A DNA stretch of 64,000 nucleotides from an uncultured Candidatus Saccharibacteria bacterium (GTDB taxonomy: Bacteria; Patescibacteriota; Minisyncoccia; Phycocordibacterales; UBA9973): NCBI GenBank assembly GCA_964591445.1, contig CAZQAW010000001.1:83010-147009 (forward strand), in the 5' to 3' direction. Every line of letters starts with the position of its first letter. Positions within the stretch are counted from its first letter, which is position 1. This document shows, piece by piece, positions 4,441 to 50,223 of the stretch. The position numbers were made by a program, and so were the translations under genes. Under the pieces are notes generated by a model. It saw only the letters and a list, made by a program, of their open reading frames with translations. It was not told the DNA's origin and did not search any database.

Positions 4441-5379
4441 CTATTCTTTCACTTCCTGCTGCGACATGATGATCTCGATTGCTTTTGCGAAAAGCGGCAC
4501 AATGTCATCATACATTGTTAAACCAGCAATGTCTTCCATTGGAAACCACTGCGCTCCATCGAGACCTCCTGAACTTACAAGTTCAAGTTCTTGATAATGC
4601 GCTTTCGCCAAATAGTACGAAACCTGCTTGCGGATTTTTCCTTGCACCGGATGCGAAGCAATATATTCATTCTCGCCCAATTTTTCCACGATTTCAACAT
4701 CAAGACCGATCTCTTCTTTGATCTCGCGCTTGGTGCCTTCTTCGGGTGTTGGCGCATCATCGATGCCGCCCTTTGCTAAAGTCCAATATCCGAACACGTC
4801 ATGCACAAGCGCAAATTCGATCTTGCCATTGTGGTCCGCATAGACAATTGCGCTTCCCTTTTTTTCAATCGGAAAAGTTGAAGGATCTGCGTTTGGATCA
4901 AACTTTTTCTTGGTGACTTCGTCTTTGCCTGGCTCGCCGATTTCTTTGTACACAGCGCCAAGCACTCCGTTGACGAAGCGGCCGCTGTTTTCTCCACCAA
5001 AACTTTTTGCAAGTTCGATAGATTCGTTGATCGCAACTTTTGGAGGAACTTGGCTGTGGTCTCCAAACAAAAGCTCGCAAAGCCCCATGCGCAAAATGTT
5101 GCGGTCGATGATATTGATCTTGTCGATCGGCCAGTCCGGCGCAGCCTTCTCGATGATTTCATCCACAATCTTTTTCTTCTTGATAACAAGTTCAAGAAGC
5201 ATTGTGACGAATTCGGTGTCGTTCAAACCAGGGCCGAACTCTGCCATATTGCGATCCAAAATCGGGCCGATATCTGTATCGGGCTTCACATTGAAATCCC
5301 ACTCAAAGAGTGTTTGGAGAACTATTGATCTTGAAAGGTGCCTGTTTGCCATAGAGTGCCCCGTGGGGCGAAAGAACAA
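4441..5379 (-). CDS. nusB: NusB antitermination factor fused to a C-terminal NUDIX hydrolase domain
   Basis: N-terminal ~150 aa NusB-like (RSIVLQTLFEWDF...FVNGVLGAV). C-terminal half has the Nudix box GGIDDAPTPEEGTKREIKEEIGL. The start may be the internal MANRH at about 5352. Confidence 0.7.
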   Translation of the reverse strand: MFFRPTGHSMANRHLSRSIVLQTLFEWDFNVKPDTDIGPILDRNMAEFGPGLNDTEFVTMLLELVIKKKKIVDEIIEKAAPDWPIDKINIIDRNILRMGLCELLFGDHSQVPPKVAINESIELAKSFGGENSGRFVNGVLGAVYKEIGEPGKDEVTKKKFDPNADPSTFPIEKKGSAIVYADHNGKIEFALVHDVFGYWTLAKGGIDDAPTPEEGTKREIKEEIGLDVEIVEKLGENEYIASHPVQGKIRKQVSYYLAKAHYQELELVSSGGLDGAQWFPMEDIAGLTMYDDIVPLFAKAIEIIMSQQEVKE

Positions 5380-9160: not shown

Positions 9161-9163
9161 CTG

Positions 9164-9237
9164 CGCGATCGAGCGGATTTGAACCGCCGACCTCCCGCGT
9201 GACAGGCGGGCGCTCTAACCAGCTGAGCTACGACCGC
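9164..9237 (-). tRNA. tRNA-Asp (anticodon GUC), 74 nt, CCA not encoded
   Basis: Hand-folded: acceptor GCGGTCG/CGATCGC, D-arm TAGCTCAGCTGGTTAGAGC, anticodon loop CTGTCAC, T-arm GGCGG-TTCAAAT-CCGCT. Confidence 0.8.
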
Positions 9238-9303
9238 ATAATTTTTAAAACAAAAACTGTGTCACTATTTCAAACTATCATATCAGGAAGTTATTCCCAA
9301 ATA

Positions 9304-9380
9304 TGGTGTCGGCGGGAGGAATCGAACCTCCGACCTTGGGCTTATGAGTCCCACGCTCTAACCGACTGAGCTACGCCGAC
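9304..9380 (-). tRNA. tRNA with CAU anticodon (elongator Met or Ile2-lysidine type), 3' CCA encoded
   Basis: Acceptor GTCGGCG/CGCCGAC with G1-C72 pair, D-arm TAGCTCAGTCGGTTAGAGC, anticodon loop CTCATAA, T-arm GGAGG-TTCGATT-CCTCC, discriminator A then CCA. Confidence 0.75.
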
Positions 9381-9536
9381 GTAAAGCAAATAGTTTTGCT
9401 TTACGTCGATGGATGCACCACGAACGCAAGCAATGCGACGCTGTGAGGCCAAAGGCCGAACCGTCGCTTTTATTTACTTATCTACTTCTTTTCCCGACAT
9501 AGGCGACGGGTACAAGGCCTGTCACGTGCCGGAATG
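9381..9536. other. 156-nt structured spacer between the two CAU tRNAs. Contains a plus-strand hairpin (GTAAAGCAAA..TTTGCTTTAC) and a terminator-like stem GCGACG..(GGCC-AAA-GGCC)..CGTCGC followed by TTTTATTT.
   Basis: Inverted repeats read directly in sequence; function unknown (possible small RNA or processing signal). Confidence 0.3.
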
Positions 9537-9607
9537 TTGCGGGGTCCGGAATCGAACCGGAGTCCTAAGGTTATGAGCCTTATGAGATGCCACTTCTCCA
9601 CCCCGCG
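9537..9607 (-). tRNA. Initiator-like tRNA-fMet (anticodon CAU) with C1xA72 mismatch, 71 nt, no encoded CCA
   Basis: Acceptor CGCGGGG/CCCCGCA gives the unpaired C1:A72 typical of bacterial initiator tRNA. Anticodon loop CTCATAA. T-arm TCCGG-TTCGATT-CCGGA. Only two G-C pairs at the base of the anticodon stem. Confidence 0.65.
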
Positions 9608-12757: not shown

Positions 12758-14827
12758 CTAGATATCAAGCTCTGCCATTTTTGCGTTTGATTGAATGAAA
12801 GATTTGCGCGGAGCAACTTCACTACCCATGAGCGTGTCGAAGACTTGGTCTGCAGATACAGCATCATCGATAGACACTTGTTTGAGTGTACGAGTTTCGT
12901 GCTTCATCGTTGTTTCCCACAATTCTTCTGGGTTCATTTCTCCCAAACCTTTGTATCGCTGGATAGAAACTTTTGGAGTTTTCTTCTTTGTTTCTTCTTC
13001 GTCAGCGTTTTCTTCGGCTCCCGCTTCTTCAGCAGATTCTATTTCTTCGATATCGTCCATATCTTTGCCAACGATTTTTATCTTTTCTTCGTCAGTAAAA
13101 GCGTACGTAATTTCTTTTCCTTTTTTAATCTTGTAAAGTGGTGGCTGCGCGATATAGAGATAGCCAGCTTCGATAACTTGCTTGAAGTATCTATAAAACA
13201 ACGTAAGCAAAAGTGTGCGAATGTGCGCTCCGTCAACATCGGCATCGGTCGCAATGATGATCTTATGGTAGCGCATTTTTTCGATATCAAACGTATCTCC
13301 GATCGAAGTCCCAAGCGCAATAACCAAAGACTTTACTTCTTTGGAAGCGAGCATTTTGTCGAGACGTGCACGTTCAACGTTCAAGATTTTTCCCTTAAGC
13401 GGAAGCACGGCTTGAGTTCGGCGGTCGCGACCTTGCTTTGCAGAACCACCCGCAGAATCTCCCTCCACAATGAAGAGTTCTGATTCTGAAGCGTCTTTTG
13501 TTTGACAATCGGCAAGCTTTCCAGGAAGTGTCATGCCTTCGAGCGCGCCTTTTCGCAAGATAGAATCCTTCGCAGCTTTTGCGGCTTTGCGAGCGCGGAG
13601 CGCGAGCACGGACTTGTTGATGATGACTTTTGCAGTATCCGGATTTTCTTCCAAGAAATTATTGAATGCTTCTCCGAATGCTGTTGCAGTTGCACCTTGC
13701 GCTTCTGTCGAACCAAGTTTTGCTTTTGTCTGTCCTTCAAACTGGATTTCGCGAAGCTTTACAGAGATGACCGCAGTCAAACCTTCGAGCACATCTTCGC
13801 CGGTAAAAGCGCCGTCAGACTCTTTAACCATGTTGTTCTTCTTGCTGTATGTGTTGATGAGACGCGTAAGCGCAGTTTTGAAACCTGTCACATGCGTACC
13901 GCCTTCGGGAGTATAAATGTTGTTTGCAAAAGGAGTGATGCGGTCTGCAATGTCGTCTACATATTGCAAAGCGATTTCAACCCCAACTCCGTCTACTTCT
14001 TTTTCAACGTAGAAAATGTTGTCGTGAAGCGGCTTTTGCACGCGATTGTAAAACTTAACAAGAGACATAAGTCCTCCTTCGAAATAAAACGTTGTTGAAG
14101 GCGCTTCGATGCCGAGTTCACTAAAATAGAAAAACCCGTCTTGCGGAAGCTTGCCAGTGAAAAGCATGTCAGTATCCAAAGTACGCGCGTCGATGATGTG
14201 AATGCGCAACCCTTTTACCAAATACGCCTGCTGTCGCAAACGGTTCACGATAGTATTCCAATCAAAATCAATGCCTTCTTTGAAAATTTCTGGATCTGGT
14301 TCAAAGGTAATGATCGTTCCATTCATCTTTGTTTTGCCGATATTTTTTACCTTCGCTTTTGTTTTGCCTTGCGCGTATTCTTGCATGAAAATACCACCGT
14401 CTTTGTGTACTTCTGCTCGAGTGTACGTCGAAAGCGCGTTTACCACAGACGCTCCCACACCGTGAAGACCTCCTGACACTTTGTATCCTTCGCCGCCAAA
14501 CTTTCCTCCGGCGTGAAGCGTCGTCATTATCGTTTCAAGCGCAGATACTTTTGTTTTTGGGTGAATGTCTACCGGAATACCTCGGCCGTTGTCGGTAACA
14601 CGAACACGATTGCCAGGCAGAAGTACGACTTCGATATGATCTGCAAAACCTCCCATCGCTTCGTCGCGAGAGTTGTCGAAAATTTCCCACACCAAGTGGT
14701 GCAAACCATCGATACCAGTGGTACCAATGTACATTCCCGGGCGTCGGCGTACAGGCTCAAGCCCTTCCAATACGGAGATCGATTCGGCCCCGTATTTGCT
14801 TTGTTTCTTTTTATCTTCGAGTGACAT
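12758..14827 (-). CDS. gyrB: DNA gyrase subunit B (type IIA topoisomerase B subunit)
   Basis: YGAESISVLEGLEPVRRRPGMYIGTTG, GHKL ATPase motifs, Toprim EGDSAGGSAKQGRDR, C-terminal GyrB tail. No gyrA adjacent. Confidence 0.9.
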   Translation of the reverse strand: MSLEDKKKQSKYGAESISVLEGLEPVRRRPGMYIGTTGIDGLHHLVWEIFDNSRDEAMGGFADHIEVVLLPGNRVRVTDNGRGIPVDIHPKTKVSALETIMTTLHAGGKFGGEGYKVSGGLHGVGASVVNALSTYTRAEVHKDGGIFMQEYAQGKTKAKVKNIGKTKMNGTIITFEPDPEIFKEGIDFDWNTIVNRLRQQAYLVKGLRIHIIDARTLDTDMLFTGKLPQDGFFYFSELGIEAPSTTFYFEGGLMSLVKFYNRVQKPLHDNIFYVEKEVDGVGVEIALQYVDDIADRITPFANNIYTPEGGTHVTGFKTALTRLINTYSKKNNMVKESDGAFTGEDVLEGLTAVISVKLREIQFEGQTKAKLGSTEAQGATATAFGEAFNNFLEENPDTAKVIINKSVLALRARKAAKAAKDSILRKGALEGMTLPGKLADCQTKDASESELFIVEGDSAGGSAKQGRDRRTQAVLPLKGKILNVERARLDKMLASKEVKSLVIALGTSIGDTFDIEKMRYHKIIIATDADVDGAHIRTLLLTLFYRYFKQVIEAGYLYIAQPPLYKIKKGKEITYAFTDEEKIKIVGKDMDDIEEIESAEEAGAEENADEEETKKKTPKVSIQRYKGLGEMNPEELWETTMKHETRTLKQVSIDDAVSADQVFDTLMGSEVAPRKSFIQSNAKMAELDI

Positions 14828-15016
14828 CCGGTGTTTTGTGGTTATTTTTTATAGCCTTATTATAGCATATTTGAAGCCCTTAAAGCGAGTGATTTATTAA
14901 CAGATTTCCTTGTATTTAGCCTTATTTTGTAAGGTTTTCTTGCTATTGACTTTTAACTATATATATGCTATTATGTATAGGAAATAAGTTAATTCTAACA
15001 ATTTAAAAATATACAT

Positions 15017-15304
15017 ATGAGCTATTTGAAAGTTAACAACCAACAGGAGTCAATTAGAACAACAGGGAGCTATTTGAGTTTCCTTAATTCTATTTCCTCA
15101 AACTCAACAAGTCCGGACTTTTTTAAAGTTACAACAGATGGCAGCAATAAGGCAAATGTTGATGAGTACTTATTAAGTATTCAAGAAATTAAGAAAGAAG
15201 ATGGTTCCGGTAAATCTTTTATGTTCAAAGCAACGGGTTATGCAGTTAAGAACGATAATCGCATACCAATAGCAGGAAACATTGAGGGTTACATACGATT
15301 TTAA
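15017..15304 (+). CDS. Hypothetical small protein (AT-rich)
   Basis: ORF with TTGACT-17-TATTAT promoter about 40 nt upstream and a terminator downstream. Confidence 0.35.
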   Translation: MSYLKVNNQQESIRTTGSYLSFLNSISSNSTSPDFFKVTTDGSNKANVDEYLLSIQEIKKEDGSGKSFMFKATGYAVKNDNRIPIAGNIEGYIRF

Positions 15305-15321
15305 TTATTAAGTTCAACACT

Positions 15322-15352
15322 AAAAACAGCAGGAAATTTCTTGCTGTTTTTT
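15322..15352. terminator. Bidirectional rho-independent terminator (between the small ORF and pheS)
   Basis: aaaaacagcaggaaatttcttgctgtttttt. Confidence 0.8.
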
Positions 15353-15354
15353 AT

Positions 15355-16494
15355 TTATCGAATAGTCGCATTAAAAACTTTTACTGTTTCCTCTTCAAGT
15401 TTTTTGTGCAGGTTGTTTACTTCTTCGTCTGTGAGTGTGCGGTCGAGAGATCGGTAGGTAATGCGGTACGCGTAGCTTTTCTTCCCTTCTCCAAATTTGG
15501 CGGCATTTTCATATTCGTCTACAAGCGCCATTTCTTCGGCCATGTCGCCTATCACGTCTCGAACCAAATCGAAATAATTGTTCGGCATGAAGTTTGCCGT
15601 ATCTACAACAAATGAAATGTCGCGAGTAACGGCTGGATATTTGCTGACTTCTTTAAATTTCTGTCCGAGTACAAGTTGCTTTGTAACGCGCTCGTCGTTA
15701 GACCAGAGCAAGCGAATGTCTGGAAGTTCCATAGAGATGATTGCGAGGCGTTCCAAGCCGAGCCCGAAAGCCCAACCAGTCCATTCGTCTGGGTTTACGC
15801 CAAGTTTTTTAAGCACACTTCCCTTCACAACTCCGGCGCCATTTACTTCAATCCACTTTCCGTCAACTTCAACTTCCATTTCCAAAGATGGATCGGTGTA
15901 CGGGAATGTGTCTGGGTTGAATCGGTATTTTACATCTTCTCCAAAAATTGCTTTTGCTGTATCCGCAAGCACACGTTCGAGTGTGTCGCGAGTAATGTTT
16001 TCTTTGTCTTTGCGCGCCAAATACCAGCCGTCGAGCTGATGAAAGACGTTCATATGACGGCGATCAATTTCGTCTTTTCTATATACTTTTCCGGTTGCAA
16101 ATGCGCCAACGCTTTCGCCCGACGCCATGCGTTTTTTAATTTCTTCGTTATGCAAATAGTAGTACCACATCACCGTCATCTGAGTGCGGAGAATGTGTTG
16201 TTCGTCTACATAGTACGTGTCAGATTTTGAGCGAGAAGGATGGTCGAGCGGAAAGTCGAAAAGATCGAAACCGATTTCAGTTGAAACAATTTCCGGAACT
16301 TCGATCATGTCAAAGTTTGCAAATTCTGCTCGAGAAGTTACTCGCTTTACCATTTCGTGGATCGGGCTGCCGGGAGTTCGAGCAAGGTCTGGCATGGCCA
16401 AATAGCGCTTCATGCGAGTAGCCTCGGCGTCAGAGCGCTCCAAAAGCATACCCATCAAAGCCTCCTTTTCTTCATTTGATATCTTGATTTCCAT
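15355..16494 (-). CDS. pheS: Phenylalanine--tRNA ligase alpha-type catalytic subunit with a C-terminal FDX-ACB (ferredoxin-fold anticodon-binding) domain, i.e. mitochondrial-like single-chain PheRS architecture
   Basis: Catalytic core motifs FPYTDPSLEMEV and GWAFGLGLERLAI. C-terminal about 100 aa SKYPAVTRDISFVVD...KKSYAYRITYRSLDRTLTDEEVN matches the FDX-ACB domain normally found at the PheT C-terminus. Confidence 0.85.
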   Translation of the reverse strand: MEIKISNEEKEALMGMLLERSDAEATRMKRYLAMPDLARTPGSPIHEMVKRVTSRAEFANFDMIEVPEIVSTEIGFDLFDFPLDHPSRSKSDTYYVDEQHILRTQMTVMWYYYLHNEEIKKRMASGESVGAFATGKVYRKDEIDRRHMNVFHQLDGWYLARKDKENITRDTLERVLADTAKAIFGEDVKYRFNPDTFPYTDPSLEMEVEVDGKWIEVNGAGVVKGSVLKKLGVNPDEWTGWAFGLGLERLAIISMELPDIRLLWSNDERVTKQLVLGQKFKEVSKYPAVTRDISFVVDTANFMPNNYFDLVRDVIGDMAEEMALVDEYENAAKFGEGKKSYAYRITYRSLDRTLTDEEVNNLHKKLEEETVKVFNATIR

Positions 16495-16524
16495 AGGGGG
16501 ATTATAGCGTAAAACGTGAGTTTT

Positions 16525-16929
16525 TCATACCTCACCCCGGACCTTCGGCCGACCCTCTCCTACCTCAGGAGAGGGGGAATTCAACTCTCTCATTATTTCC
16601 TGAACTACTACTTCTAAATTATTATTTATATCCTTATTCCAAAACCGCAGAACTTTTATACCAAACTCATTTAGAAATTGAGTACGTAATGTATCATACT
16701 CCTGATTTTCTAAATGCTGAGATCCATCAATTTCTATACATACCATTTTTCTTGGACAATAGAAATCAAGCACATAACCACCGACCGAATACTGTCTTCG
16801 AAATTTATACCCTAACTTATTATCTCGAATTTTTGCCCATAAAATAATCTCTTGCGGTGTTTGATTCTTTCGCAATTCTTTTCGCGCTATAATATTTGAT
16901 TTATCATTTCGTAAAAACATAGTGAGCAT
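16525..16929 (-). CDS. DUF559 (Vsr-like endonuclease fold) protein; ends of the ORF run into the flanking inverted repeats
   Basis: QTPQEIILWAKIRDNKLGYKFRRQYSVGGYVLDFYCPRKMVCIEIDGSQH typical DUF559. Confidence 0.7.
   Translation of the reverse strand: MLTMFLRNDKSNIIARKELRKNQTPQEIILWAKIRDNKLGYKFRRQYSVGGYVLDFYCPRKMVCIEIDGSQHLENQEYDTLRTQFLNEFGIKVLRFWNKDINNNLEVVVQEIMRELNSPSPEVGEGRPKVRGEV
16529..16577 (-). repeat. Two-hairpin palindromic repeat element, copy B (inverted relative to copy C); left terminal inverted repeat of the DUF559 unit
   Basis: Its reverse complement CCCCCTCTCCTGAGGTAGGAGAGGGT...GGGGTGAGGT is near-identical to copy C and related to copy A. Confidence 0.6.
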
Positions 16930-35021: not shown

Positions 35022-38000
35022 CTAAAGTGGGTGGCTATTGAAATATGCACGAGTGATCGCACCAAAGGTGCCAGCCGCCGGGCTTATCTTATGTTCTTTT
35101 TGGAATTCAATGAGTGCAGCTTCGGTACCCTTGCCGAATATGCCATCGACGTCGAGCGTGAGGTCAAGCGCTTTGTTCAAATACTTTTGAATTTCTTTGA
35201 TTTCAGCATTTTTTGCACCACGTTTGAAATACCCCTTAAACGTATAGGTTCCCGTGTTGGCTGGGGTTTCAGATTGTGTGTGTGTTTTCTTCCATTTTTC
35301 TATCGCCGCCTGACTTAGCTTGCCAAACAAACCATCAACCGCAAGACCGGCATTGATTTCTGTATTCAGATACGTTTGCAAAGCTTTGATCTCATCTTTT
35401 GAAATTCCAGCTTTGTAATATCCGGCAAGAATTTTTTGGGCAATCGTATCAACCGATGCTCCAGGATTTTGTGGTGTCTGAATATTTGTCGGTGGTGTTG
35501 GAATAATGATTACAGCTCCGCCAGGCGCTCCACCAGAGACAGGCGCCGAGCTTGTTGTAAATGTCTGATCTGAGCTTGTAGCCAAGTTACTTGAAGCATC
35601 ATTTGATTGTACTCTAAAGTGATAAAGGGTGCTTGAAGTCAGACTGTTGATCGTTACCGAGTGACTTGTGACTCGAGGCGACGTATCGGCTTCTGTTGTT
35701 GAAGTTCCATAGGAAATTGTCGGGCCATAATCAACGACCGATGAGGCAATTTCATCCGTATCCCATGTGATAGTGACGCTATTATACGTCGGCGTTGCAA
35801 CAATGTTTGAAATAACTGGTGGAGTTACGTCTGGCGCAGCAGTTGTTGTAAAGGTTTGATCTGTTGATGTTCCCAAATTACTTGCCGCGTCGTTTGATTT
35901 CACGCGGAAGTGGTACGTTGTTGAAGACGAAAGACTGTTTATCGTAACAGAATGAGAAGTAACTCTCGGCGAAGTATCTGCCTCAGATGTACTTGTACCA
36001 TAGCTTGCTGTTGGTCCGTAGTCGACAATTGAAGATGCTGCCTCATCTGTATCCCATGTAATCTGCACGCTATTGTGCGTCGGAGTTGCAACAATGTTTG
36101 AAATGACCGGAGCAGTTACATCTGGCGCAACAGTTGTTGTAAAGGTTTGATCGCTTGAAATTCCTTCGTTTGGAGTTCCGGCATCATCTTTTGACTTTAC
36201 GCGGAAATGGTATGTTGTAGAACCAGTCAAGCCAGACAGATTGACGGTGTGAGAAATCACGCGAGTTGAAGTATCTGTTTCTGTTGTTGAAGTGCCATAC
36301 GACACAGTCGTACCGTATTCAACCAAAGACGACCCACGTTCATCGCTGTCCCATGTTATCGTTGCGCTCGTAGCGGTAATACTTGATACAACAATATTTG
36401 AAATAGCCGGTGCAGTTGTGTCTGTAACTGTTGATTCGCTGAACGTACCATTTGATCCATTTGAAGACCCGGTTCCGCTTGTGCCAGTACCCGCATTTGC
36501 AACCGGAGCAGTACCTGAATATGTTTTATTCGTATAATCAAAACGGATGCGTCCACCACCACCCGAAGCCGCACCGGCAATTGCGCCCGATCCACCCGCT
36601 CCTCCGTTTGCCGTAATCACACCAGTAGTACCGGCATAATTTTTTACAGCACCCCAGATACTTCCACCGGCAGCACCCACATCACCATTCGCAGACAAAG
36701 TACCGTCAACAGTAAGAGTGTCGGTCACATTTAATTTCATTGCTCCACCACCACGTGCGGTTGCAGTATAAGAACTTGTTGCCGTTGTACCACCCAAGTG
36801 TCCTGCTCCAAGCGTAACCGGTGCAGTCGAAGATCCGTATGACTGACTATCACTTGCAGTAATAGTAGGACACAAAGGTGTAGAAGTTGTCTGTCCTTGT
36901 CCGCCGGCACCACCATGACCTGCTCCGTTAAATCGGTTTGAACTACACGCTGCACCGCGACCAGTTGTCGTCGTATCTGTGTCATGATGCCCCATGGCGT
37001 TTACCGTCAATGTTCCACCACTATTGATCGTAAGGTATGTTGCATTCAAGGTACCGCCGGTTCCCATATTACTTGAAGCAGTTGGATCAGAATCGAGTGT
37101 AAGCGTACCACCGGAAGCGATCGTAAGAGTGCCGAAAGTATAAGAAATATCATTACCAAGCTTAAGAGCATTTGAAAGTGTGAAAGTTGAAGACGGATAT
37201 TGTGTTGGGAAATAGACAGTACCAGTGTAACCAGCATGTCCACCCGTTGTTGAAGTGACAGTTCCCCCGTTTACTTGCAGCGTCCCAGTAAATGAATACG
37301 TCGCTCCGTTAAAAGAGACGCGTCCGCCGCCGCCGGCGCCGCCGCCTTGATTTCCATCACCACCGTTTGCACGAATAGTTCCGCCACCGGCTACAGTGCC
37401 AGAAGAAAACCAAATACTTCCTCCCGAACCACCGCCGCGCTCGGCTAGGCCGGTTGCAATTGATCCATTTGAAGAAATAGTTCCGTCAACAGTTGTCGTT
37501 CCGGACACAACAAACTTGAGTGCGCCACCACCGGCACCGCCTTTTGCACGTCCCGCCCCAGAACCAAGAGACACCGGAGAGGAAGCGGATCCGTATTTTG
37601 CTCCACCAGTTCCTGCATACGAAAGCGCAGTGTTTCCACCACGACCACCGTATCCACCACCTGCTGCTCGGTTGGAACTATTACCTGTTGCACCAACTCC
37701 TGACGCAGAGGTATACCCTCCCGGAAAGCCAAGTCCGTCCCCTACAATACTTCCACCGCTATTTACATTGAGTGTTGTTGCAGTCAAAGTGTAGCCTGTA
37801 CCAGCAACAATGTCGCCATCAAGCGTAAGAGTGTAGCCATTTGGAACAGTGAGTGTACCAAATGTCTGTTGTAAATCATTACCAAGAGTAAGATTGCTTG
37901 TCAGCGTAAAATTGGAAAGCGTAGCTGATGGGAAATACACCGTACCTGCTTGCCCACGACTACCGACTGAAGTTGCAGCAGTATTGACCGTACCACCAGA

Positions 38001-41000
38001 AACATCAACTGTCCCAGTAAATGAATACGTCGCTCCGTTAAAAGAGACGCGTCCGCCGCCGCCGGCGCCTGAAGTTGTGGTATCAGTATGAGAAGGGATA
38101 CTTCCACCTTTTGCTGAGATAGTACCCGAACCAGACACACTACCATTTGAAAACCAAATACTTCCTCCCGAACCACCGCCGTTTCGCGTACCACCCGTAC
38201 CAGAAGAAGCGTCTTCACCATTTGCAGAAAGAGTACCGTTGACAGTGACAGTTGAAGCAACGAGTTTGAGTGCGCCACCACCGGCACCGCCTTGTCCATT
38301 TGCTTGACTAGCACAAGTAACACCCGGATAACATCCAGCACCAAAAGCACCTCCTGACCCAAGAGCAACCGGAGACGCACTTGAACCATATGGTGCACCA
38401 GCTGAATATGTAAAGTTGGAATCAAATCCTCCACGGCCACCGTATGATCCGCCAGGAGAACCAATAGACCCCGGAGAACCTACGTTTGAAATATATGAAC
38501 CAGGGCCGAGAGCTTGCGGAAAACCTTCAGCATTTGTAGTAAGAGTTCCTGATGCGCCTATCGTAATACTCCCCGCGTTGATGACATATCCAGTTCCATC
38601 ATTTGCAACAGTTGAAAGATCGCCATCGATATGCATGTCGTTTTGGAAACGAAGAGTACCTGCCGTCACTGTAATTGCGCCAGTAACAGTCAAAGAACCA
38701 AGCCCGCCCATGACAGCATATGGAGTATAAGTAACAGTATTCGTAAATCCAGTATCAAGCGTGAGCGAAGCAATGTTGTTTGCGCTGTAGTCGACGATGA
38801 CATCTTCACTTCGAGTTGAATCAAAAATAACAGCATGACCAGTATCAGGAACTACCACACCGCTCCAGTTTGATGCATCGCTCCAATAACCGCTTTGTCC
38901 AAGACCTGTCCATACACGAGTTGTCGAACTGACACCGCGAATCGTTTTTGAATCGTTTGCGTCGACACTGCCATCATTGTTTATATCAAGCCCAAGATAC
39001 GTTGCCGAAAACGTTCCGGAAAATGTCGTAAATGAAAGTCCGGAAATAACCAAAGTATCATTTGCAGAGAAACTTGAAGTGACATCGATCACCAATGTTT
39101 TATCAGAATCAGCGTAACTAACTGTCGTACTTGCTTTAGCACTCGCTGTTCCAGAAAATGTCGCGGTCGTATCTGTCGTATCCCACACCATTGCAGCACC
39201 AGCGGGGATCTTTATGCGTATGTCGTTGGTAGAAGTAATAACCGGAGTTTGACCATCCACAACAGTGATCGTCTGGATCGCTTGAGCTGCTTGGCTTTGA
39301 CTGAACACTTGGTTGTACGCACTATATATACCAGCAGCGGCGGCAGACGAAATAGTCATTGTACGGTTGTCGAGTGCATCGCTTCCGCCATCGTTACTTG
39401 TATCAATGCCAAGATTGGTCGGCGCAGAAACTTGAGAGAACGTTGTAAGCGAAAGTCCTGAAACTGTTATGGCATCATTTGCAGAAAAATTACTTGTTAC
39501 GTTAAGCACGAGTACCTTGCCTGACTCTTCATAGCTCACGGTTGTTGAAACTTTTGCGGCAGCTCCCCCGCCGATCGTCACAGTTGTGTCTGTCGTATCC
39601 CACAACATATTGAGTTCAGTCGGAATGCGAACGCGGATATCGTTTGTCGCAGTGATGGTTGCAGTTGAAGCATCGGTAATAGTAAGAGTACTGATTGCAG
39701 TTGTAGAGCCAGACACAGTATATACCTGACTCGCCGCAGAAGACACAGTCGCGGTGCTCGGTGAAAGTGTAGCTACTGTGTATGTTTGATCACATATTAA
39801 AGTATGACTTCCAGCACCAGTGTTTCCAGCATTGACATAAGGCGCAGCCCGATATGATTTTAAGTTCACTTGTGGAGTGCCTGTTGTATCGACACTAATG
39901 ATACCGTAGTGGTTACCGCTAGTAGAGTTACTACACACAAGTTCAGCACCTGCACCGGCCGGCGTAGTAGCTTTGATACTTGAATTCAAAGGGGACGCAC
40001 CAAACTCTGCGTAGTTATGAGATGTTGAAAGAGGGTTCTTATAGGAAACTGTATTGTGTTGATCTGCAGAAAGTACAAAAACATTCTTAAGGTTATTGCG
40101 TTTTAAAAAAGTATATATCTCTTGACGCTCAGTGTTGAAAGTATAAAAGCTATCATTTGCGTTTGCGACAGCATCAGACCATGGAGTTGGAGAAAGGATA
40201 AACTTAAAAGTTGCAGTGCTATTCTTGAGCCAGCTTTTTAGATGCGCCATTTGTGCTGCACCCAACATGCGATTTGAGTTACTTTCATATCCACGATCTT
40301 TACCACGATGTGTACGTGTGTCAAGCATGAAAAATGATGTATCACATACATTGAAACTATAGTAGAGTTCGTTCGGAACTCGAACAGACGGATTGACTTG
40401 TCCTTGGTAATTGTCAAAAGCAAGACGACTCACGCTGTAGCCGCTGGTCTTTCCAGCATCCCAATCGTGGTCATTGAGAGAAAGAGTTACGTGATCGTCT
40501 GGAGTGAGAAGTTCGTGATCATCCCACATAAAAACTGAGCCGATGGCTTTTGTAAAAGTCTTCATGGCAGAGTCTATCCAGTTTGCTTTGTAGTATGTTT
40601 CGATATCGGCTTGTGTTCCAGAACTTGGACCATAAATCTGATCTCCAAGAAACACATTGAAGTTTGGTGTTGCTGTGTTTACAATTTCATCGAAGTTTAA
40701 AGTTTCATTTCCAGCACTCACTGCCCCGGTGTCTATATCGGCAGAAAGCGAGAACACATAACTACATGCAGTACCAGAAGTCTTGAGTGTCACAAATGTT
40801 CCAGACGAGCCATTGCCTGATTGCACCACATCGTCAATGAGCACACGGTAATCATAGGAAGTATCCGGAAGAAGACCAGTGATAGAAATAGTACCTGTAT
40901 AATCTGTGCCTGAGCTGAGCGCAACTCCAGAAGTGATCGTGCCCGGATATGCATCACCTGTGAGCTTGTATTCAACTTTGTATGTTGAAGCAGAATCAGA

Positions 41001-41153
41001 ACGCACCCAGATCTTGATCGAAGTGTCAGTCGGTGCGCCGAGTACCGCTCCATATGAAAGTGTTGCTGCATGTGTCGACGCAGGCACGAACAAAAATGTG
41101 CATAGTATCATGCACACAAAAAGAATATAGGTAATGTATTTCGTGAACTTCAT
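35022..41153 (-). CDS. Giant secreted cell-surface protein (2043 aa): signal peptide, PhoD-like alkaline phosphatase, Gly-rich beta-helix repeats, 3x fibronectin type III, 2x peptidoglycan-binding domain
   Basis: Signal MKFTKYITYILFVCMILCTFLFVPASTHA. PhoD_N-like segment then FMWDDHE metallophosphatase. Repeated GGAGGGGRVSFNGATYSFTGT modules. Three about 95-aa FN3 repeats (PVISNIVATPT...TYHFRVKSND). Tandem LAVDGLFGK / LDVDGIFGK PG_binding_1 repeats at the C-terminus. Confidence 0.85.
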   Translation of the reverse strand: MKFTKYITYILFVCMILCTFLFVPASTHAATLSYGAVLGAPTDTSIKIWVRSDSASTYKVEYKLTGDAYPGTITSGVALSSGTDYTGTISITGLLPDTSYDYRVLIDDVVQSGNGSSGTFVTLKTSGTACSYVFSLSADIDTGAVSAGNETLNFDEIVNTATPNFNVFLGDQIYGPSSGTQADIETYYKANWIDSAMKTFTKAIGSVFMWDDHELLTPDDHVTLSLNDHDWDAGKTSGYSVSRLAFDNYQGQVNPSVRVPNELYYSFNVCDTSFFMLDTRTHRGKDRGYESNSNRMLGAAQMAHLKSWLKNSTATFKFILSPTPWSDAVANANDSFYTFNTERQEIYTFLKRNNLKNVFVLSADQHNTVSYKNPLSTSHNYAEFGASPLNSSIKATTPAGAGAELVCSNSTSGNHYGIISVDTTGTPQVNLKSYRAAPYVNAGNTGAGSHTLICDQTYTVATLSPSTATVSSAASQVYTVSGSTTAISTLTITDASTATITATNDIRVRIPTELNMLWDTTDTTVTIGGGAAAKVSTTVSYEESGKVLVLNVTSNFSANDAITVSGLSLTTFSQVSAPTNLGIDTSNDGGSDALDNRTMTISSAAAAGIYSAYNQVFSQSQAAQAIQTITVVDGQTPVITSTNDIRIKIPAGAAMVWDTTDTTATFSGTASAKASTTVSYADSDKTLVIDVTSSFSANDTLVISGLSFTTFSGTFSATYLGLDINNDGSVDANDSKTIRGVSSTTRVWTGLGQSGYWSDASNWSGVVVPDTGHAVIFDSTRSEDVIVDYSANNIASLTLDTGFTNTVTYTPYAVMGGLGSLTVTGAITVTAGTLRFQNDMHIDGDLSTVANDGTGYVINAGSITIGASGTLTTNAEGFPQALGPGSYISNVGSPGSIGSPGGSYGGRGGFDSNFTYSAGAPYGSSASPVALGSGGAFGAGCYPGVTCASQANGQGGAGGGALKLVASTVTVNGTLSANGEDASSGTGGTRNGGGSGGSIWFSNGSVSGSGTISAKGGSIPSHTDTTTSGAGGGGRVSFNGATYSFTGTVDVSGGTVNTAATSVGSRGQAGTVYFPSATLSNFTLTSNLTLGNDLQQTFGTLTVPNGYTLTLDGDIVAGTGYTLTATTLNVNSGGSIVGDGLGFPGGYTSASGVGATGNSSNRAAGGGYGGRGGNTALSYAGTGGAKYGSASSPVSLGSGAGRAKGGAGGGALKFVVSGTTTVDGTISSNGSIATGLAERGGGSGGSIWFSSGTVAGGGTIRANGGDGNQGGGAGGGGRVSFNGATYSFTGTLQVNGGTVTSTTGGHAGYTGTVYFPTQYPSSTFTLSNALKLGNDISYTFGTLTIASGGTLTLDSDPTASSNMGTGGTLNATYLTINSGGTLTVNAMGHHDTDTTTTGRGAACSSNRFNGAGHGGAGGQGQTTSTPLCPTITASDSQSYGSSTAPVTLGAGHLGGTTATSSYTATARGGGAMKLNVTDTLTVDGTLSANGDVGAAGGSIWGAVKNYAGTTGVITANGGAGGSGAIAGAASGGGGRIRFDYTNKTYSGTAPVANAGTGTSGTGSSNGSNGTFSESTVTDTTAPAISNIVVSSITATSATITWDSDERGSSLVEYGTTVSYGTSTTETDTSTRVISHTVNLSGLTGSTTYHFRVKSKDDAGTPNEGISSDQTFTTTVAPDVTAPVISNIVATPTHNSVQITWDTDEAASSIVDYGPTASYGTSTSEADTSPRVTSHSVTINSLSSSTTYHFRVKSNDAASNLGTSTDQTFTTTAAPDVTPPVISNIVATPTYNSVTITWDTDEIASSVVDYGPTISYGTSTTEADTSPRVTSHSVTINSLTSSTLYHFRVQSNDASSNLATSSDQTFTTSSAPVSGGAPGGAVIIIPTPPTNIQTPQNPGASVDTIAQKILAGYYKAGISKDEIKALQTYLNTEINAGLAVDGLFGKLSQAAIEKWKKTHTQSETPANTGTYTFKGYFKRGAKNAEIKEIQKYLNKALDLTLDVDGIFGKGTEAALIEFQKEHKISPAAGTFGAITRAYFNSHPL

Positions 41154-43823: not shown

Positions 43824-44108
43824 TTTTTTCTTTTTCGCAATTCCCCATCGATACCCGCCGAGACTTCCATCTTTGCGGATGACGCGGTGACAAGGAACAA
43901 CAACCGGCAAACTATTTTTTCCAATTGCATGTGCAACCGCGCGAATTGCCGTCGGCTTACCGATTTTCTTTGCAATGTCTTCGTAAGTCCGAGTCTGACC
44001 ATAAGGGATGTTGCAAAGTTCTGCCCAGACTTTTTGCTGAAATGGCGTGCCCGTCTGCGCGGGCACGCCTCTTTTTTTAGTTGTATTTTTTATAGAATTA
44101 CTTTTCAT
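43788..44108 (-). CDS. ogt: Methylated-DNA--protein-cysteine methyltransferase (active PCHRV site)
   Basis: YGQTRTYEDIAKKIGKPTAIRAVAHAIGKNSLPVVVPCHRVI. Confidence 0.85.
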   Translation of the reverse strand: MKSNSIKNTTKKRGVPAQTGTPFQQKVWAELCNIPYGQTRTYEDIAKKIGKPTAIRAVAHAIGKNSLPVVVPCHRVIRKDGSLGGYRWGIAKKKKLLALEAKQRKV

Positions 44109-44176
44109 ATCTGCGCTATAAGCTTCTACTGTAACACGACTTTCCGAGTTATTTCATTGACACAATGTTGTTATTT

Positions 44177-44440
44177 TTATTTCTTCTTCCACCGAGGAGC
44201 AAAGCCCGCCATGAATGCAAAAAGTTTTGCTTTCCATTTTGGTTCGCCTCGCGCAATGATCGCTTCTTTCATCGCTTTTTTGAATTCTTTTACGTCAGTA
44301 CCCTGGTAGCACAAAGCGCCGTTCGTGTAGCAGTACGAGCAGTATTTTTCATGTTCGCGGTTTGCGCCCATAGGGTCTTTTCTAAATGGCATCAAACAAC
44401 TTTCGCAATTCCCTTTCATTGTTTTTGGTTGGGGGTCCAT
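44177..44440 (-). CDS. Small zinc-ribbon domain protein
   Basis: CESCLMPF...CSYCYTNG pattern. Confidence 0.5.
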   Translation of the reverse strand: MDPQPKTMKGNCESCLMPFRKDPMGANREHEKYCSYCYTNGALCYQGTDVKEFKKAMKEAIIARGEPKWKAKLFAFMAGFAPRWKKK

Positions 44441-44464
44441 AAATAATTAAAAATTACTGATAAA

Positions 44465-45397
44465 TTACGCTTTCAATTGTTCTTTTAAGAACCTATTCAT
44501 GATTTCTGAAATTTCTTTTGCGTGAGGACTTTTAGGATTATTGAAACTATGTCCTCCTTCTTTAAATTCGTGATACTCTACATGGTTTCCGTTTGACTCT
44601 AGTAATCCGACAAGCTTTCTTGCCTGATCTACAGAAACTCTTGTATCATCTTCTGTATGCATAATAAGAAGCGGAATATCTTTTGGTATTTCTTTATAAA
44701 ATTCCGTCGCAGACCTTTTTTTCATTTCTTCTTCTCCACCACCAAATGCTTTAGTAAATATTTCTCGCATTTCTGGCCTTTCTTCTGCAGATTGAGCTAT
44801 ATCTGTTGTCCCTGCCAAAGACACAATGGCTTTTACCCAAGGCTCGCGTGCAGCAAGCAAATAGCTCATCATACCACCTCTGCTTCTTCCAACGACAACA
44901 GATTTGCCTGGCTTTGACATTGGCAATTGATCTGCAATTTCTTTTACACGCACAACATCATTCAAATCGTTACCACCCCATTCATCTTTTCCTTCGGAAC
45001 CAATTGCTCCTCTATATTCTGACCCCACAACAATTGCACCATTCTTGACCAACTCACAAGGAATATCTATGTATGCATTTCCAATTTTTTGCCCCGTACT
45101 CCCTATTTCTGAGCTACCTCCTCTATTCCAAACTATTACCGGCAGTTTTTCTTTTATTTCTTTTGGCACCCACAAATAACCGGCAATATTCAAATCGTCC
45201 GACAAGTATTTGTATTTATAAGCATCTATTGATGCATAATTTTCTTCAATTCTTTTATAATCTTCTTTAGAAAAATGTTCCTTTGCCCATGTAAAATACT
45301 CTTCGTCGAGCTCTACTTTTTCAACATCAGAAACAGTGGCAATATTTTCAAGAGATTGCTGAACATTGAATACTGGTTTTCTTTCCGGAGATTCCAT
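44465..45397 (-). CDS. Alpha/beta hydrolase of the prolyl-oligopeptidase (S9)/dienelactone-hydrolase type
   Basis: Nucleophile elbow GRSRGG. Catalytic Asp/His region HTEDDTRVSVDQ ... GGHSF. Confidence 0.7.
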   Translation of the reverse strand: MESPERKPVFNVQQSLENIATVSDVEKVELDEEYFTWAKEHFSKEDYKRIEENYASIDAYKYKYLSDDLNIAGYLWVPKEIKEKLPVIVWNRGGSSEIGSTGQKIGNAYIDIPCELVKNGAIVVGSEYRGAIGSEGKDEWGGNDLNDVVRVKEIADQLPMSKPGKSVVVGRSRGGMMSYLLAAREPWVKAIVSLAGTTDIAQSAEERPEMREIFTKAFGGGEEEMKKRSATEFYKEIPKDIPLLIMHTEDDTRVSVDQARKLVGLLESNGNHVEYHEFKEGGHSFNNPKSPHAKEISEIMNRFLKEQLKA

Positions 45398-45435
45398 GTG
45401 TGCATTTTAGCATACCTTGCAATGTAAATACTTAT

Positions 45436-45464
45436 TTGACTACTCAAATATTATGTGATACAAT
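45436..45464 (+). promoter_or_regulatory. Sigma70-like promoter TTGACT-17-TACAAT with TG extended -10, upstream of the HD-domain gene
   Basis: ttgactactcaaatattatgtgatacaat. Confidence 0.5.
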
Positions 45465-45559
45465 GAGTATAAGAATGGTTGCCCTATTATGAGCAAAAGA
45501 TACATTCCCGAGGCTCGCTGAAAACTCACTAGAGTAGGCAAACTTAAATACATTTACAA

Positions 45560-46465: not shown

Positions 46466-46482
46466 TTAATGAACTTCAGTAA

Positions 46483-46518
46483 TCGCTGTGTTTTTAAAAC
46501 ACAGCGATTTTTTTTATT
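46483..46518 (+). terminator. Rho-independent terminator
   Basis: aatcgctgtgtttttaaaacacagcgatttttttt. Confidence 0.8.
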
Positions 46519-46565
46519 TAACCTCGCTTATTAAATTAACTGCTTGTAAGCCCCACATTGTACCA

Positions 46566-47135: not shown

Positions 47136-47316
47136 GAGTTATAGTGTAGCATTTTAATAGATAATGATTTAGGTTTTCTGCGGTGTACTCGGGTATGGTA
47201 CCCGTGGGTGCAACCCTTGTAAGGACATTTTAGCATCTTTTTAAGAGTAAGACTAAGGTTTGTGGGTCGCTATCTGCAAATGCCAACAAATGCCAATTTT
47301 TTGATATAATGCAAAT

Positions 47317-50219: not shown

Positions 50220-50223
50220 ATGT

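What the first reader, a model, noticed from the sequence alone, without database searches (positions are those of the whole stretch)
15355..16494. PheS with fused FDX-ACB anticodon-binding domain: mitochondrial-like single-chain PheRS
The 379-aa protein has the class II PheRS alpha catalytic core plus a C-terminal about 100-aa domain (SKYPAVTRDISFVVD ... KKSYAYRITYRSLDRTLTDEEVN) that normally sits at the C-terminus of the bacterial beta subunit PheT and in monomeric mitochondrial PheRS. The N-terminal coiled-coil typical of bacterial PheS is short. No pheT is adjacent. Together these suggest a minimal monomeric PheRS without the editing beta subunit.
Basis: partly seen in the sequence, partly recalled or inferred. 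Interest (0 to 1): 0.6.

Follow-up and report, generated by a model that had tools for sequence, protein, structure and literature searches.

The report
Single-chain mitochondrial-type PheRS in a CPR bacterium
This small candidate-phyla-radiation bacterium makes its phenylalanine-tRNA ligase as one 379-residue chain, like mitochondria, instead of the four-subunit proofreading enzyme expected in bacteria, and a large branch of Parcubacteria inherits the same gene.

Summary
Window 15355-16494 (minus strand) encodes a 379-aa protein. It has a PheRS class II catalytic core (Pfam tRNA-synt_2d, aa 43-273) fused to an FDX-ACB anticodon-binding domain (aa 284-379). It has no long N-terminal coiled coil, and the 64 kb hold no pheT.

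The protein passes the curated cut-off of the mitochondrial PheRS model TIGR00469. It fails those of bacterial PheS and of the 'SrmL mystery ligase'. Its AlphaFold model superposes full-length on human mitochondrial PheRS (TM 0.78). Phe-pocket, ATP and anticodon-contact residues are invariant in 121 relatives.

The host is a Parcubacteria/Paceibacteria bacterium. Orthologues occur in hundreds of such genomes, are as conserved as GyrB, and are almost always followed by gyrB, even at 48% identity.

No canonical pheS or pheT lies in 1.34 Mb of flanks from 84 related genomes. Four near-complete genomes carrying this gene are listed with one 'PheRS alpha' gene. One Paceibacterales genome with canonical pheST lacks it.

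It is most likely the only PheRS, and it has no editing domain. Whole-genome absence of pheT could not be tested here. I found no paper describing this. Some relatives carry a stand-alone PheT-B2-like gene directly upstream.

The parts
15355..16494 (-). Gene for the 379-aa single-chain (M-type) phenylalanine--tRNA ligase, including the TAA stop at 15355-15357
   Evidence: ORF; Pfam; NCBIfam TIGR00469 263.9 bits against a cut-off of 258.35; more than 120 full-length homologues at 65-97% identity
16369..16494 (-). Short N-terminal helical segment (aa 1-42) in place of the roughly 100-aa coiled-coil domain of bacterial PheS
   Evidence: No PF02912 hit; the AF2 model shows helices at about aa 8-19 and 23-33
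15676..16368 (-). Class II PheRS catalytic core (aa 43-273). Motif 2 is GKVYRKDEIDRRHMNVFHQLDGW (aa 135-157). The Phe-pocket segment is FPYT (aa 197-200). Motif 3 is GWAFGLGLERLA (aa 240-251).
   Evidence: Pfam tRNA-synt_2d E 9.6e-55. R139, H147, F151, H152, Q153, F197, T200, A242, G244 and R249 align with E. coli PheS R195, H202, F206, H207, Q208, F248, T251, A294, G296 and R301 and are invariant in 121 relatives.
15646..15675 (-). Linker/hinge between the core and the anticodon-binding domain (aa 274-283)
   Evidence: Gap between the two Pfam envelopes; non-regular segment in the model
15358..15645 (-). FDX-ACB (B8-type, RRM-like) anticodon-binding domain (aa 284-379)
   Evidence: Pfam FDX-ACB E 8.6e-23 over the full profile. 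It aligns with the last 100 aa of TIGR00472 PheT and with the PheT C-termini of PDB entries. D326, Y328, S340 and R379 align with the D, Y, S and R of the E. coli PheT B8 domain and are at least 98% conserved.
16501..16528 (-). Promoter-like -35/-10 pair (ATGAAA, 16 nt spacer, TATAAT) ending 7 nt before the start codon. Consensus match only.
   Evidence: 10 of 12 matches. The region as a whole is not enriched over shuffles.
15322..15351 (.). 13-bp hairpin flanked by A and T runs, 4 nt after the stop codon. It looks like a bidirectional intrinsic terminator.
   Evidence: sequence read
12758..14827 (-). gyrB, the conserved downstream partner of this gene. Here it is separated by 527 nt; in relatives the gap is 5-155 nt.
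   Evidence: ORF. The PheRS-then-gyrB order is seen in L001-L003, L088, L133 and L134.

Best explanation
The gene encodes a functional single-chain phenylalanyl-tRNA synthetase of the mitochondrial ('PheRS-M') architecture, and it is most likely the only PheRS of this Parcubacteria/Paceibacteria bacterium.

Inferred mechanism, by homology to human mitochondrial PheRS:
- The class II core binds Phe and ATP and forms Phe-AMP.
- The C-terminal FDX-ACB domain reads the GAA anticodon of tRNA-Phe. It swings away from the core, from a closed to an open state, so that the acceptor end can reach the active site.
- Phe is then transferred to A76.

The protein has no B3/B4 domain, so it cannot hydrolyse Tyr-tRNA-Phe or meta-Tyr-tRNA-Phe itself. 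Fidelity must rest on the synthetic site alone.

Shown here: the architecture, the fold, conservation of the catalytic and anticodon-contact residues, the wide vertical distribution, and the gyrB linkage.

Inferred, not shown: monomeric state, Phe specificity, lack of editing in trans, and absence of pheS/pheT elsewhere in this genome.
For: 1. Domains and family scores. Pfam finds tRNA-synt_2d plus FDX-ACB. TIGR00469 pheS_mito scores 263.9 against a cut-off of 258.35, TIGR00468 pheS scores 161 against 237, and SrmL scores 254.9 against 300.
2. Solved structures. The best matches by sequence are human mitochondrial PheRS at E 6e-61, against 3e-37 for the best bacterial PheS.
3. Predicted structure. 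The AF2 model has pLDDT 90.6 and pTM 0.84. Foldseek gives the top 6 matches as human mitochondrial PheRS in the closed form, full length, TM 0.78-0.80, rmsd 3.2-3.9 A. Bacterial PheS chains match the core only, TM about 0.55.
4. Active site. All ATP and Phe contact positions that I aligned to E. coli PheS are invariant in 121 relatives, including A242, which aligns with the specificity residue A294. The two differences are D155 for E210 and Y199 for F250. The E/D alternation is common across all M-type proteins, including the long, eukaryote-like ones.
5. Anticodon-contact positions D326, Y328, S340 and R379 are conserved with E. coli PheT and with human FARS2.
6. Housekeeping behaviour. Identity to relatives is 69-77%, similar to GyrB at 71-78% and above RNase III, NusB, SMC and UvrD. 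The PheRS-then-gyrB gene pair is kept even in a second CPR clade only 48-49% identical.
7. Distribution. 213 relatives were found in GTDB species genomes labelled Nomura-, Kaiser-, Zambryski-, Doudna-, Vogel- and Spechtbacteria and Paceibacterota. A second clade covers Wolfe-, Staskawicz-, Nealson- and Portnoybacteria.
8. Sole-enzyme evidence.
- tblastn with E. coli PheS and PheT on 1.34 Mb around the gene in 84 genomes plus the window finds only the M-type gene and, in some loci, a B2-only gene.
- The published single-copy-gene table lists exactly one 'PheRS alpha' in four near-complete genomes that carry the M-type gene: Kaiserbacteria RIFCSPHIGHO2_12_FULL_56_13, Doudnabacteria RIFCSPHIGHO2_01_48_18, Nealsonbacteria RIFOXYB1_FULL_40_15 and Wolfebacteria RIFCSPHIGHO2_01_FULL_48_22 (PMC5079060).
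- Conversely, the fully listed 866-gene genome of Ca. Yanofskyibacterium PMX_810_sub has canonical pheS plus pheT and only one PF01409 hit and one FDX-ACB hit, so it has no M-type gene (PMC10936435).
Against: 1. Only 64 kb of this genome were available, so a pheS/pheT pair elsewhere is not excluded.
2. Canonical PheST does exist in some Parcubacteria. A 'Nealsonbacteria'-labelled genome is cited as having a PheT, while another so-labelled genome has the M-type gene.
3. The count of one 'PheRS alpha' would also fit a canonical PheS if that pipeline failed to recognise the M-type protein. NCBI's pipeline calls the M-type proteins 'hypothetical protein', whereas JGI/IMG calls them 'PheRS alpha chain'.
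4. The TIGR00469 cut-off is passed by only 5.5 bits, and the SrmL 'mystery ligase' model scores almost as high.
5. Two pocket positions differ from canonical PheS (D155 and Y199), and their effect on specificity is unknown.
6. No tRNA-Phe gene lies in the window or in the 40 related loci scanned, so identity elements could not be checked.
7. No activity or oligomeric state was measured.
Confidence: 0.8

Rival explanations
1. It is an extra PheS-related paralogue with a different, unknown job, like NCBI's 'PheS-related mystery ligase SrmL'. It would sit alongside a normal PheS/PheT pair encoded outside the window.
For: NF051887 SrmL scores 254.9 bits over nearly its whole length. Related proteins occur in a non-CPR Oligoflexia genome assembled from a metagenome, in a metabolic-gene context. 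Canonical PheST exists in some Parcubacteria. Two pocket positions differ from canonical PheS.
Against: The SrmL score is below the curated cut-off of 300, while the mitochondrial PheRS model is passed. The Phe pocket, including the residue aligned with A294, and the anticodon-contact residues are invariant. Conservation equals that of GyrB, and the gyrB linkage spans the whole radiation. Genomes of 0.5-0.9 Mb list a single PheS-family gene. The one fully listed canonical genome lacks the M-type gene.
Confidence: 0.1
2. It is the catalytic chain of a two-piece minimal PheRS. In this reading it works with a small stand-alone tRNA-binding protein derived from the B2 domain of PheT, a 'mini-beta' that would be encoded elsewhere in this genome.
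For: In 10 of 84 related loci, and on a 1.21-Mb contig, a gene of about 140 aa with a tRNA_bind domain lies 27-214 nt upstream on the same strand. Its best family match is the B2 region of TIGR00472 PheT, at 105 bits, ahead of YtpR and TapR. Its best PDB matches are E. coli-type PheT residues 37-149. It has 667 homologues, and the best 120 are all stand-alone proteins of 127-170 aa.
Against: No such gene lies in the 64-kb window or next to the gene in the closest relatives at 66-77% identity. Human mitochondrial PheRS is reviewed as active on its own as a monomer (PMC3275996). By my own recollection of Roy and Ibba 2006, which cites only by title, the B2 domain is dispensable for aminoacylation in E. 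coli. This rival adds to the main explanation and does not exclude it.
Confidence: 0.1
3. It is a recent horizontal acquisition from a eukaryote or giant virus, or eukaryotic or viral contamination of the assembly, and not a long-standing bacterial gene.
For: The closest characterised relatives are mitochondrial. Short M-type genes are common on large viral contigs, including giant-virus genomes assembled from metagenomes. Nucleocytovirus PheRS is reported to group with organellar PheRS (PMC11304981).
Against: The gene sits between bacterial housekeeping genes: gyrB, thrS, a histidine kinase and type IV pilus genes. The same gene pair is kept through two deep CPR clades. In neighbour-joining trees the CPR sequences form their own branch, with 78-98% bootstrap, outside the viral and eukaryote-like branch and not nested within it.
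Confidence: 0.03

Closest known systems
Mitochondrial/organellar phenylalanyl-tRNA synthetase (human FARS2, yeast MSF1; 'PheRS-M' in AARS Online; TIGR00469; PDB 3CMQ, 3TUP)
   Same: Same two-module chain: a PheS-type class II core plus a B8/FDX-ACB domain. There is no coiled coil and no B1-B7 domains. The curated family cut-off is passed. Identity is about 32% over the full length, and the predicted fold superposes with TM 0.78 on the closed form. Motif 2, motif 3 and the anticodon-contact residues are the same.
   Different: It is encoded in a bacterial (CPR) chromosome next to gyrB. It has no transit peptide and lacks the insertion after motif 2 that splits the alignment to human FARS2 into two stretches. 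At 379 aa it is shorter than the 415-aa human construct. Y199 replaces the second pocket Phe in 112 of 121 relatives. It branches outside the eukaryote and virus group in neighbour-joining trees. A 2010 review calls the mitochondrial enzyme the only monomeric enzyme with a class II catalytic module (PMC3275996).
Bacterial heterotetrameric PheRS (PheS TIGR00468 plus PheT TIGR00472)
   Same: The catalytic core is homologous to PheS (about 34% identity to E. coli PheS, with all key residues). The C-terminal domain is homologous to the last domain of PheT.
   Different: The two parts are fused in one chain. The N-terminal coiled coil and the B1-B7 domains, including the B3/B4 editing site, are missing. 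Both curated cut-offs are failed (161 against 237, and 66.5 against 403). There is no pheT neighbour.
NCBIfam NF051887 'PheS-related mystery ligase SrmL'
   Same: The match runs nearly end to end (profile positions 14-343 of 349) at 254.9 bits, so SrmL has the same core-plus-C-terminal-domain layout.
   Different: The score is below the curated cut-off of 300. None of the 10 representatives I scanned reached it either. I found no paper on SrmL, so its genomic setting and function could not be compared.
Nucleocytovirus (giant virus) PheRS
   Same: Same fused architecture in 335-370 aa, 37-40% identical to the query. Found on 43 IMG/VR contigs of up to 1.47 Mb. Reported to group with organellar PheRS (PMC11304981).
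   Different: These sequences group with the eukaryote-like sequences and not with the CPR branch. They keep FPF at the pocket position where the CPR clade has FPY.

Membership tests
PheRS-M / mitochondrial-type PheRS (TIGR00469) | Whole-protein score above the curated equivalog cut-off | tested here: met
   263.9 bits against 258.35. The margin is small. The 63%-identical representative P0121 also passes, at 264.3.
PheRS-M / mitochondrial-type PheRS (TIGR00469) | PheS-type class II core with motifs 2 and 3 and the Phe pocket | tested here: met
   Pfam E 9.6e-55. R139, H147, FHQ151-153, F197, T200, A242, G244 and R249 are invariant. The differences are D155 for Glu and Y199 for Phe.
PheRS-M / mitochondrial-type PheRS (TIGR00469) | FDX-ACB (B8) anticodon-binding domain fused to the C-terminus of the same chain | tested here: met
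   Pfam FDX-ACB E 8.6e-23, aa 284-379. The conserved D, Y, S and R positions are present.
PheRS-M / mitochondrial-type PheRS (TIGR00469) | No coiled-coil N-domain and no beta-subunit domains B1-B7 (no editing site) | tested here: met
   No PF02912, B3_4, B5 or tRNA_bind hit in the protein. Only 42 residues precede the core.
PheRS-M / mitochondrial-type PheRS (TIGR00469) | Overall fold and closed domain arrangement of the solved mitochondrial enzyme | tested here: met
   AF2 pLDDT 90.6. Foldseek against 3cmq/5mgh gives TM 0.78, rmsd 3.2-3.3 A over 388 columns.
PheRS-M / mitochondrial-type PheRS (TIGR00469) | Forms one clade with organellar PheRS, apart from canonical PheS | tested here: inconclusive
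   Nearly all of the best 150 representatives in 1.84 billion proteins have the fused architecture. The neighbour-joining trees use a single outgroup and put the CPR branch beside the virus-plus-eukaryote-like branch, with 98% and 67.5% bootstrap. No maximum-likelihood tree was made and no CPR canonical PheS was included.
PheRS-M / mitochondrial-type PheRS (TIGR00469) | Active as a monomer; charges tRNA-Phe with Phe | not testable with these tools
   Needs biochemistry.
PheRS-M / mitochondrial-type PheRS (TIGR00469) | Replaces the heterotetramer: no pheS/pheT in the same genome or compartment | tested here: inconclusive
   None in the 64-kb window or in 1.34 Mb of related flanks. Published tables list one 'PheRS alpha' in four M-type genomes. 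The whole genome could not be searched.
Bacterial PheS, alpha subunit (TIGR00468) | Score above the curated cut-off; N-terminal coiled-coil domain; pheT partner gene | tested here: not met
   161.4 bits against 237.45. No PF02912 hit. No pheT in the window.
SrmL, PheS-related mystery ligase (NF051887) | Score above the curated cut-off of 300 bits | tested here: not met
   254.9 bits.

The most novel reading that the evidence does not exclude
The single-chain PheRS is an old bacterial invention and not a eukaryotic one. On this reading it is the sole, editing-free PheRS of a large part of the Parcubacteria radiation, inherited vertically as a PheRS-gyrB pair. The organellar and giant-virus enzymes form its sister branch, so mitochondria would have acquired the monomeric enzyme and not created it. 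In some lineages a stand-alone PheT-B2 gene upstream would make a previously undescribed two-piece minimal PheRS.
Probability: 0.3. Interest if true: 0.8.

Novelty: new member of a known kind. Interest (0 to 1): 0.55.

Why it matters
The reviewed view is that bacterial PheRS is an (alpha-beta)2 heterotetramer with a proofreading beta subunit, and that the monomeric form is particular to organelles (PMC3275996). If the reading here is right, four things follow.

1. A major bacterial radiation would run translation with the smallest known PheRS and with no Tyr or meta-Tyr proofreading. That bears on how far translational quality control can be stripped down in reduced genomes.
2. It would give bacterial, readily expressed relatives of FARS2, the human gene whose pathogenic mutants are the subject of several of the matched crystal structures.
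3. It would reopen the question of where the mitochondrial enzyme came from.
4. Annotation is inconsistent. NCBI names these proteins 'hypothetical protein'. JGI names them 'PheRS alpha chain' and names the B2-only protein 'PheRS beta chain'. Name-based inventories could therefore make such genomes look either PheRS-less or canonical.

Tried and rejected
1. An exact look-up of the protein found nothing on record. The best relative in GTDB species genomes is 76% identical. So this organism's own genome was not found in either collection, and its other contigs could not be reached.
2. I could not obtain a CPR PheT sequence to seed a search. A direct co-occurrence test (pheT in M-type genomes) was therefore not possible.
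3. Ten full-text searches found no description of a bacterial monomeric PheRS and nothing on SrmL. The terms covered monomeric or mitochondrial-like PheRS, SrmL, FDX-ACB, K01889/K01890, TIGR00472, Parcubacteria and Patescibacteria.
4. Supplementary tables of three further papers held no PheRS entries.
5. tRNA scans of the window and of 40 related loci found no tRNA-Phe, so identity elements were not examined.
6. Rfam found no T-box or other leader near the gene.
7. I at first took the 340-kb contig carrying P0279 for a huge phage. The IMG/VR scan includes contigs named as giant-virus genome assemblies, and the literature describes nucleocytovirus PheRS, so that branch probably includes giant viruses and is already described.
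8. I considered that D155 (for Glu) marks a change of substrate. I rejected this because Asp and Glu alternate across M-type proteins, including the long eukaryote-like ones.
9. A first tree run and a Biopython bootstrap run timed out. They were redone with a faster script.
Full report
**Observation.** The ORF is real and lies exactly where stated: 15355..16494, minus strand, ATG to TAA, 379 aa.
- Pfam finds the PheRS class II core (tRNA-synt_2d, aa 43-273, E 9.6e-55) and a complete FDX-ACB domain (aa 284-379, E 8.6e-23).
- The PheS N-terminal coiled-coil domain is not detected, and only 42 residues precede the core.
- A promoter-like -35/-10 pair ends 7 nt before the ATG, and a 13-bp hairpin follows the stop.
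- The 64-kb window holds no pheT: ORF map, Pfam on the larger unassigned ORFs, and tblastn with E. coli PheT.
- Numbering note: in several calls I gave 15355-16491 on the minus strand, which removed the start Met. Residue numbers are therefore one lower than the true numbering used here.

**What the protein is.** Against NCBI's curated models it passes only the mitochondrial PheRS equivalog, TIGR00469 (263.9 bits, cut-off 258.35). It fails three others:
- bacterial PheS, TIGR00468: 161 against 237;
- PheT, TIGR00472: 66.5 against 403, last domain only;
- the 'PheS-related mystery ligase SrmL', NF051887: 254.9 against 300.

Among solved structures the best sequence matches are human mitochondrial PheRS (E 6e-61). 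Bacterial PheS chains follow at 3e-37 or weaker, and PheT chains match only aa 274-379. An AlphaFold2 model built on 42 family members is confident (pLDDT 90.6, pTM 0.84). It superposes over its full length on the closed form of human mitochondrial PheRS (3cmq/5mgh, TM 0.78, rmsd about 3.3 A). It fits the tRNA-bound open form worse (3tup, TM 0.58), and bacterial PheS matches the core only (TM about 0.55).

**Active site and tRNA-binding residues.** I aligned the protein with E. coli PheS.
- The motif 2 Arg and His (R139, H147), the FHQ triplet (151-153), F197, T200, motif 3 (G244, R249) and A242 are invariant in 121 relatives. A242 aligns with A294, which I recall as the residue that sets pocket size.
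- Two positions differ. D155 replaces Glu; Asp and Glu alternate throughout M-type proteins, including the long eukaryote-like ones. Y199 replaces the second pocket Phe in 112 of 121 relatives; this change is specific to the CPR branch.
- In the FDX-ACB domain, D326, Y328, S340 and R379 align with the D, Y, S and R of the E. coli PheT B8 domain. Human FARS2 shares the D and S and has Phe at the Tyr position; its sequence as typed in stops before the R. All four are at least 98% conserved in the family.
- From my own memory of the T. thermophilus PheRS-tRNA structure, these are the residues that hold anticodon base G34. I did not verify that here.

**Organism and distribution.** Homologue names and neighbouring genes place the window in the CPR/Patescibacteria, in Parcubacteria/Paceibacteria.
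- The best species-genome match is a 'Candidatus Nomurabacteria' genome assembled from a metagenome, at 76%.
- The 120 best homologues listed, at 65-97% identity, all have both domains and are 368-393 aa long.
- 213 relatives were found in GTDB species genomes labelled Nomura-, Kaiser-, Zambryski-, Doudna-, Vogel- and Spechtbacteria and Paceibacterota.
- A search seeded with the Oligoflexia protein P0125 uncovered a second large CPR clade of 380-384 aa (Wolfe-, Staskawicz-, Nealson- and Portnoybacteria). It is 48-49% identical to the query.
- NCBI names these proteins 'hypothetical protein', and JGI names them 'PheRS alpha chain'.

**Housekeeping behaviour.**
- The gene is followed by gyrB in the window (527-nt gap) and, with 5-155 nt between them, in relatives at 75% (L001-L003), 54% (L088) and 48% identity (L133, L134).
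- Its identity to orthologues in related contigs (69-77%) matches GyrB (71-78%). It exceeds RNase III, NusB-NUDIX, SMC and UvrD.
- This is the pattern of an old, vertically inherited core gene. It is not the pattern of a recent import.

**Is it the only PheRS?** This could not be settled, because only 64 kb of the genome are available and I had no CPR PheT sequence to search with. The indirect evidence points one way.
- tblastn with E. coli PheS and PheT over 1.34 Mb of flanks in 84 related genomes plus the window finds only the M-type gene, and in some loci a B2-only gene.
- In the single-copy-gene table of Anantharaman et al. 2016, four near-complete genomes that carry the M-type gene are listed with exactly one 'Phenylalanyl tRNA synthetase alpha'. 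They are Kaiserbacteria RIFCSPHIGHO2_12_FULL_56_13 (my locus L039), Doudnabacteria RIFCSPHIGHO2_01_48_18 (L051), Nealsonbacteria RIFOXYB1_FULL_40_15 (P0487) and Wolfebacteria RIFCSPHIGHO2_01_FULL_48_22 (P0468) (PMC5079060).
- The fully listed 866-gene genome of Ca. Yanofskyibacterium PMX_810_sub has canonical pheS and pheT (B3/4, CLM, B5, FDX-ACB). It has only one PF01409 hit and one FDX-ACB hit, so it has no M-type gene (PMC10936435).
- Caveats. The count of one would also fit a canonical PheS if the M-type had gone unrecognised. Canonical PheST clearly exists in some Parcubacteria. A Liptonbacteria genome in the same table lists two.
- My estimate is about 0.8 that this genome has no canonical PheRS.

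**Relation to other M-type proteins.**
- In a scan of 1.84 billion representatives, only 243 score below E 1e-30, and almost all of the best 150 have the fused architecture.
- They fall into long forms (400-870 aa) that pass TIGR00469 strongly and look eukaryotic, and short forms of 335-370 aa.
- The short forms sit on large viral contigs, up to 1.47 Mb, some named as giant-virus genome assemblies. This agrees with the published grouping of nucleocytovirus and organellar PheRS (PMC11304981).
- Neighbour-joining trees rooted on E. coli PheS give these bootstrap values: the query clade 100%, the two CPR clades together 78%, the CPR clades plus two unnamed proteins (P0124, P0127) 98%, and the virus-plus-eukaryote-like remainder 67.5%.
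- So the CPR genes are not nested among eukaryotic or viral ones. With a single outgroup and a distance method, this is suggestive only.

**A stand-alone B2-like gene.**
- In 10 of 84 related loci, and on a 1.21-Mb contig, a gene of about 140 aa lies 27-214 nt upstream of the M-type gene on the same strand.
- It is a tRNA_bind domain whose best family match is the B2 region of PheT (TIGR00472, 105 bits, profile positions 38-152). It scores higher there than for YtpR (84 bits, below its cut-off of 100) or TapR.
- Its best solved relatives are residues 37-149 of E. coli-type PheT.
- It has 667 homologues. The best 120 are all stand-alone, and JGI calls them 'PheRS beta chain'.
- It is absent from the window and from the closest relatives, so it is not part of this locus. 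It suggests that some lineages keep a trans-acting piece of the old beta subunit.

- The core forms Phe-AMP.
- The FDX-ACB domain binds the GAA anticodon and rotates away from the core, from a closed to an open state. The model is in the closed state.
- Phe is then transferred to A76.
- Without a B3/B4 domain there is no cis editing of Tyr- or meta-Tyr-tRNA-Phe.

**Known or new.** The enzyme type is known: a monomeric organellar PheRS, reviewed as the only monomeric enzyme with a class II catalytic module (PMC3275996). Ten full-text searches found no description of a bacterial member. I therefore file it as a new member of a known kind, of moderate interest. The most interesting open reading is that the single-chain enzyme is an old bacterial form and a sister of the organellar one.

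Noticed in passing
Related loci: L076 9468-9884, L088 10001-10432, also L031, L034, L044, L048, L060, L062, L065, L068, L073. Not in the window.: A stand-alone gene of about 140 aa with a tRNA_bind domain most like the B2 domain of PheT lies 27-214 nt upstream of the M-type PheRS gene on the same strand (695 nt in L034). It has 667 homologues, and JGI labels them 'PheRS beta chain'. It may be a trans-acting remnant of the beta subunit.
   Followed up: partly
window 44000-64000: GC content falls from about 0.45 to about 0.31. The region carries a ParB-methylase fusion (48125-49483), a second DNA methylase (49470-50219), a reverse transcriptase (54257-55312) and a large serine recombinase (59438-60766). 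It is probably an integrated mobile element, or the assembly is chimeric here.
   Followed up: partly
window 57648-57768 (-): Rfam finds a full-length LOOT RNA (RF03000, 73.6 bits against a gathering score of 46.4) inside the low-GC region, between a 238-aa membrane-like ORF and a 501-aa ORF with no Pfam match.
   Followed up: no
window 16525-16929 (-): A DUF559 endonuclease-like gene (134 aa) ends 30 nt upstream of the PheRS start. The relatives whose upstream neighbours I looked at carry other genes at that position, so it looks like a local insertion.
   Followed up: no
window 14828-15354, ORF 15017-15304 (+): The PheRS-gyrB spacer is 527 nt here, against 5-155 nt in relatives. It is AT-rich and holds a 95-aa ORF on the opposite strand with no Pfam match.
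   Followed up: no
window 4441-5379 (-): A NusB-NUDIX fusion protein (312 aa). The same fusion is present in the relatives L001 and L002.
   Followed up: no
IMG/VR loci L090-L132; L005 (340-kb contig): Short (335-370 aa) fused core-plus-FDX-ACB PheRS genes occur on 43 large viral contigs, 200-540 kb and up to 1.47 Mb, some named as giant-virus genome assemblies. This fits the published link between nucleocytovirus and organellar PheRS.
   Followed up: partly
L007 (GCA_019694465.1, Oligoflexia); proteins P0125, P0404-P0412: A small group of M-type proteins of 394-447 aa includes P0125, which sits in a non-CPR Oligoflexia genome among metabolic genes. The group branches within the second CPR clade, which suggests transfer out of CPR. 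Whether that genome also has pheST is unknown.
   Followed up: no
window 35022-41153 (-): A 2,043-aa secreted-looking protein with PhoD-like phosphatase, purple-acid-phosphatase N-terminal, fibronectin type III and peptidoglycan-binding domains.
   Followed up: no
window 9163-9607 (-): A cluster of tRNA-Asp and two tRNA-Met genes lies near the locus. The same trio recurs within 10 kb of the PheRS gene in several relatives, for example L009, L012, L027, L035 and L044.
   Followed up: no
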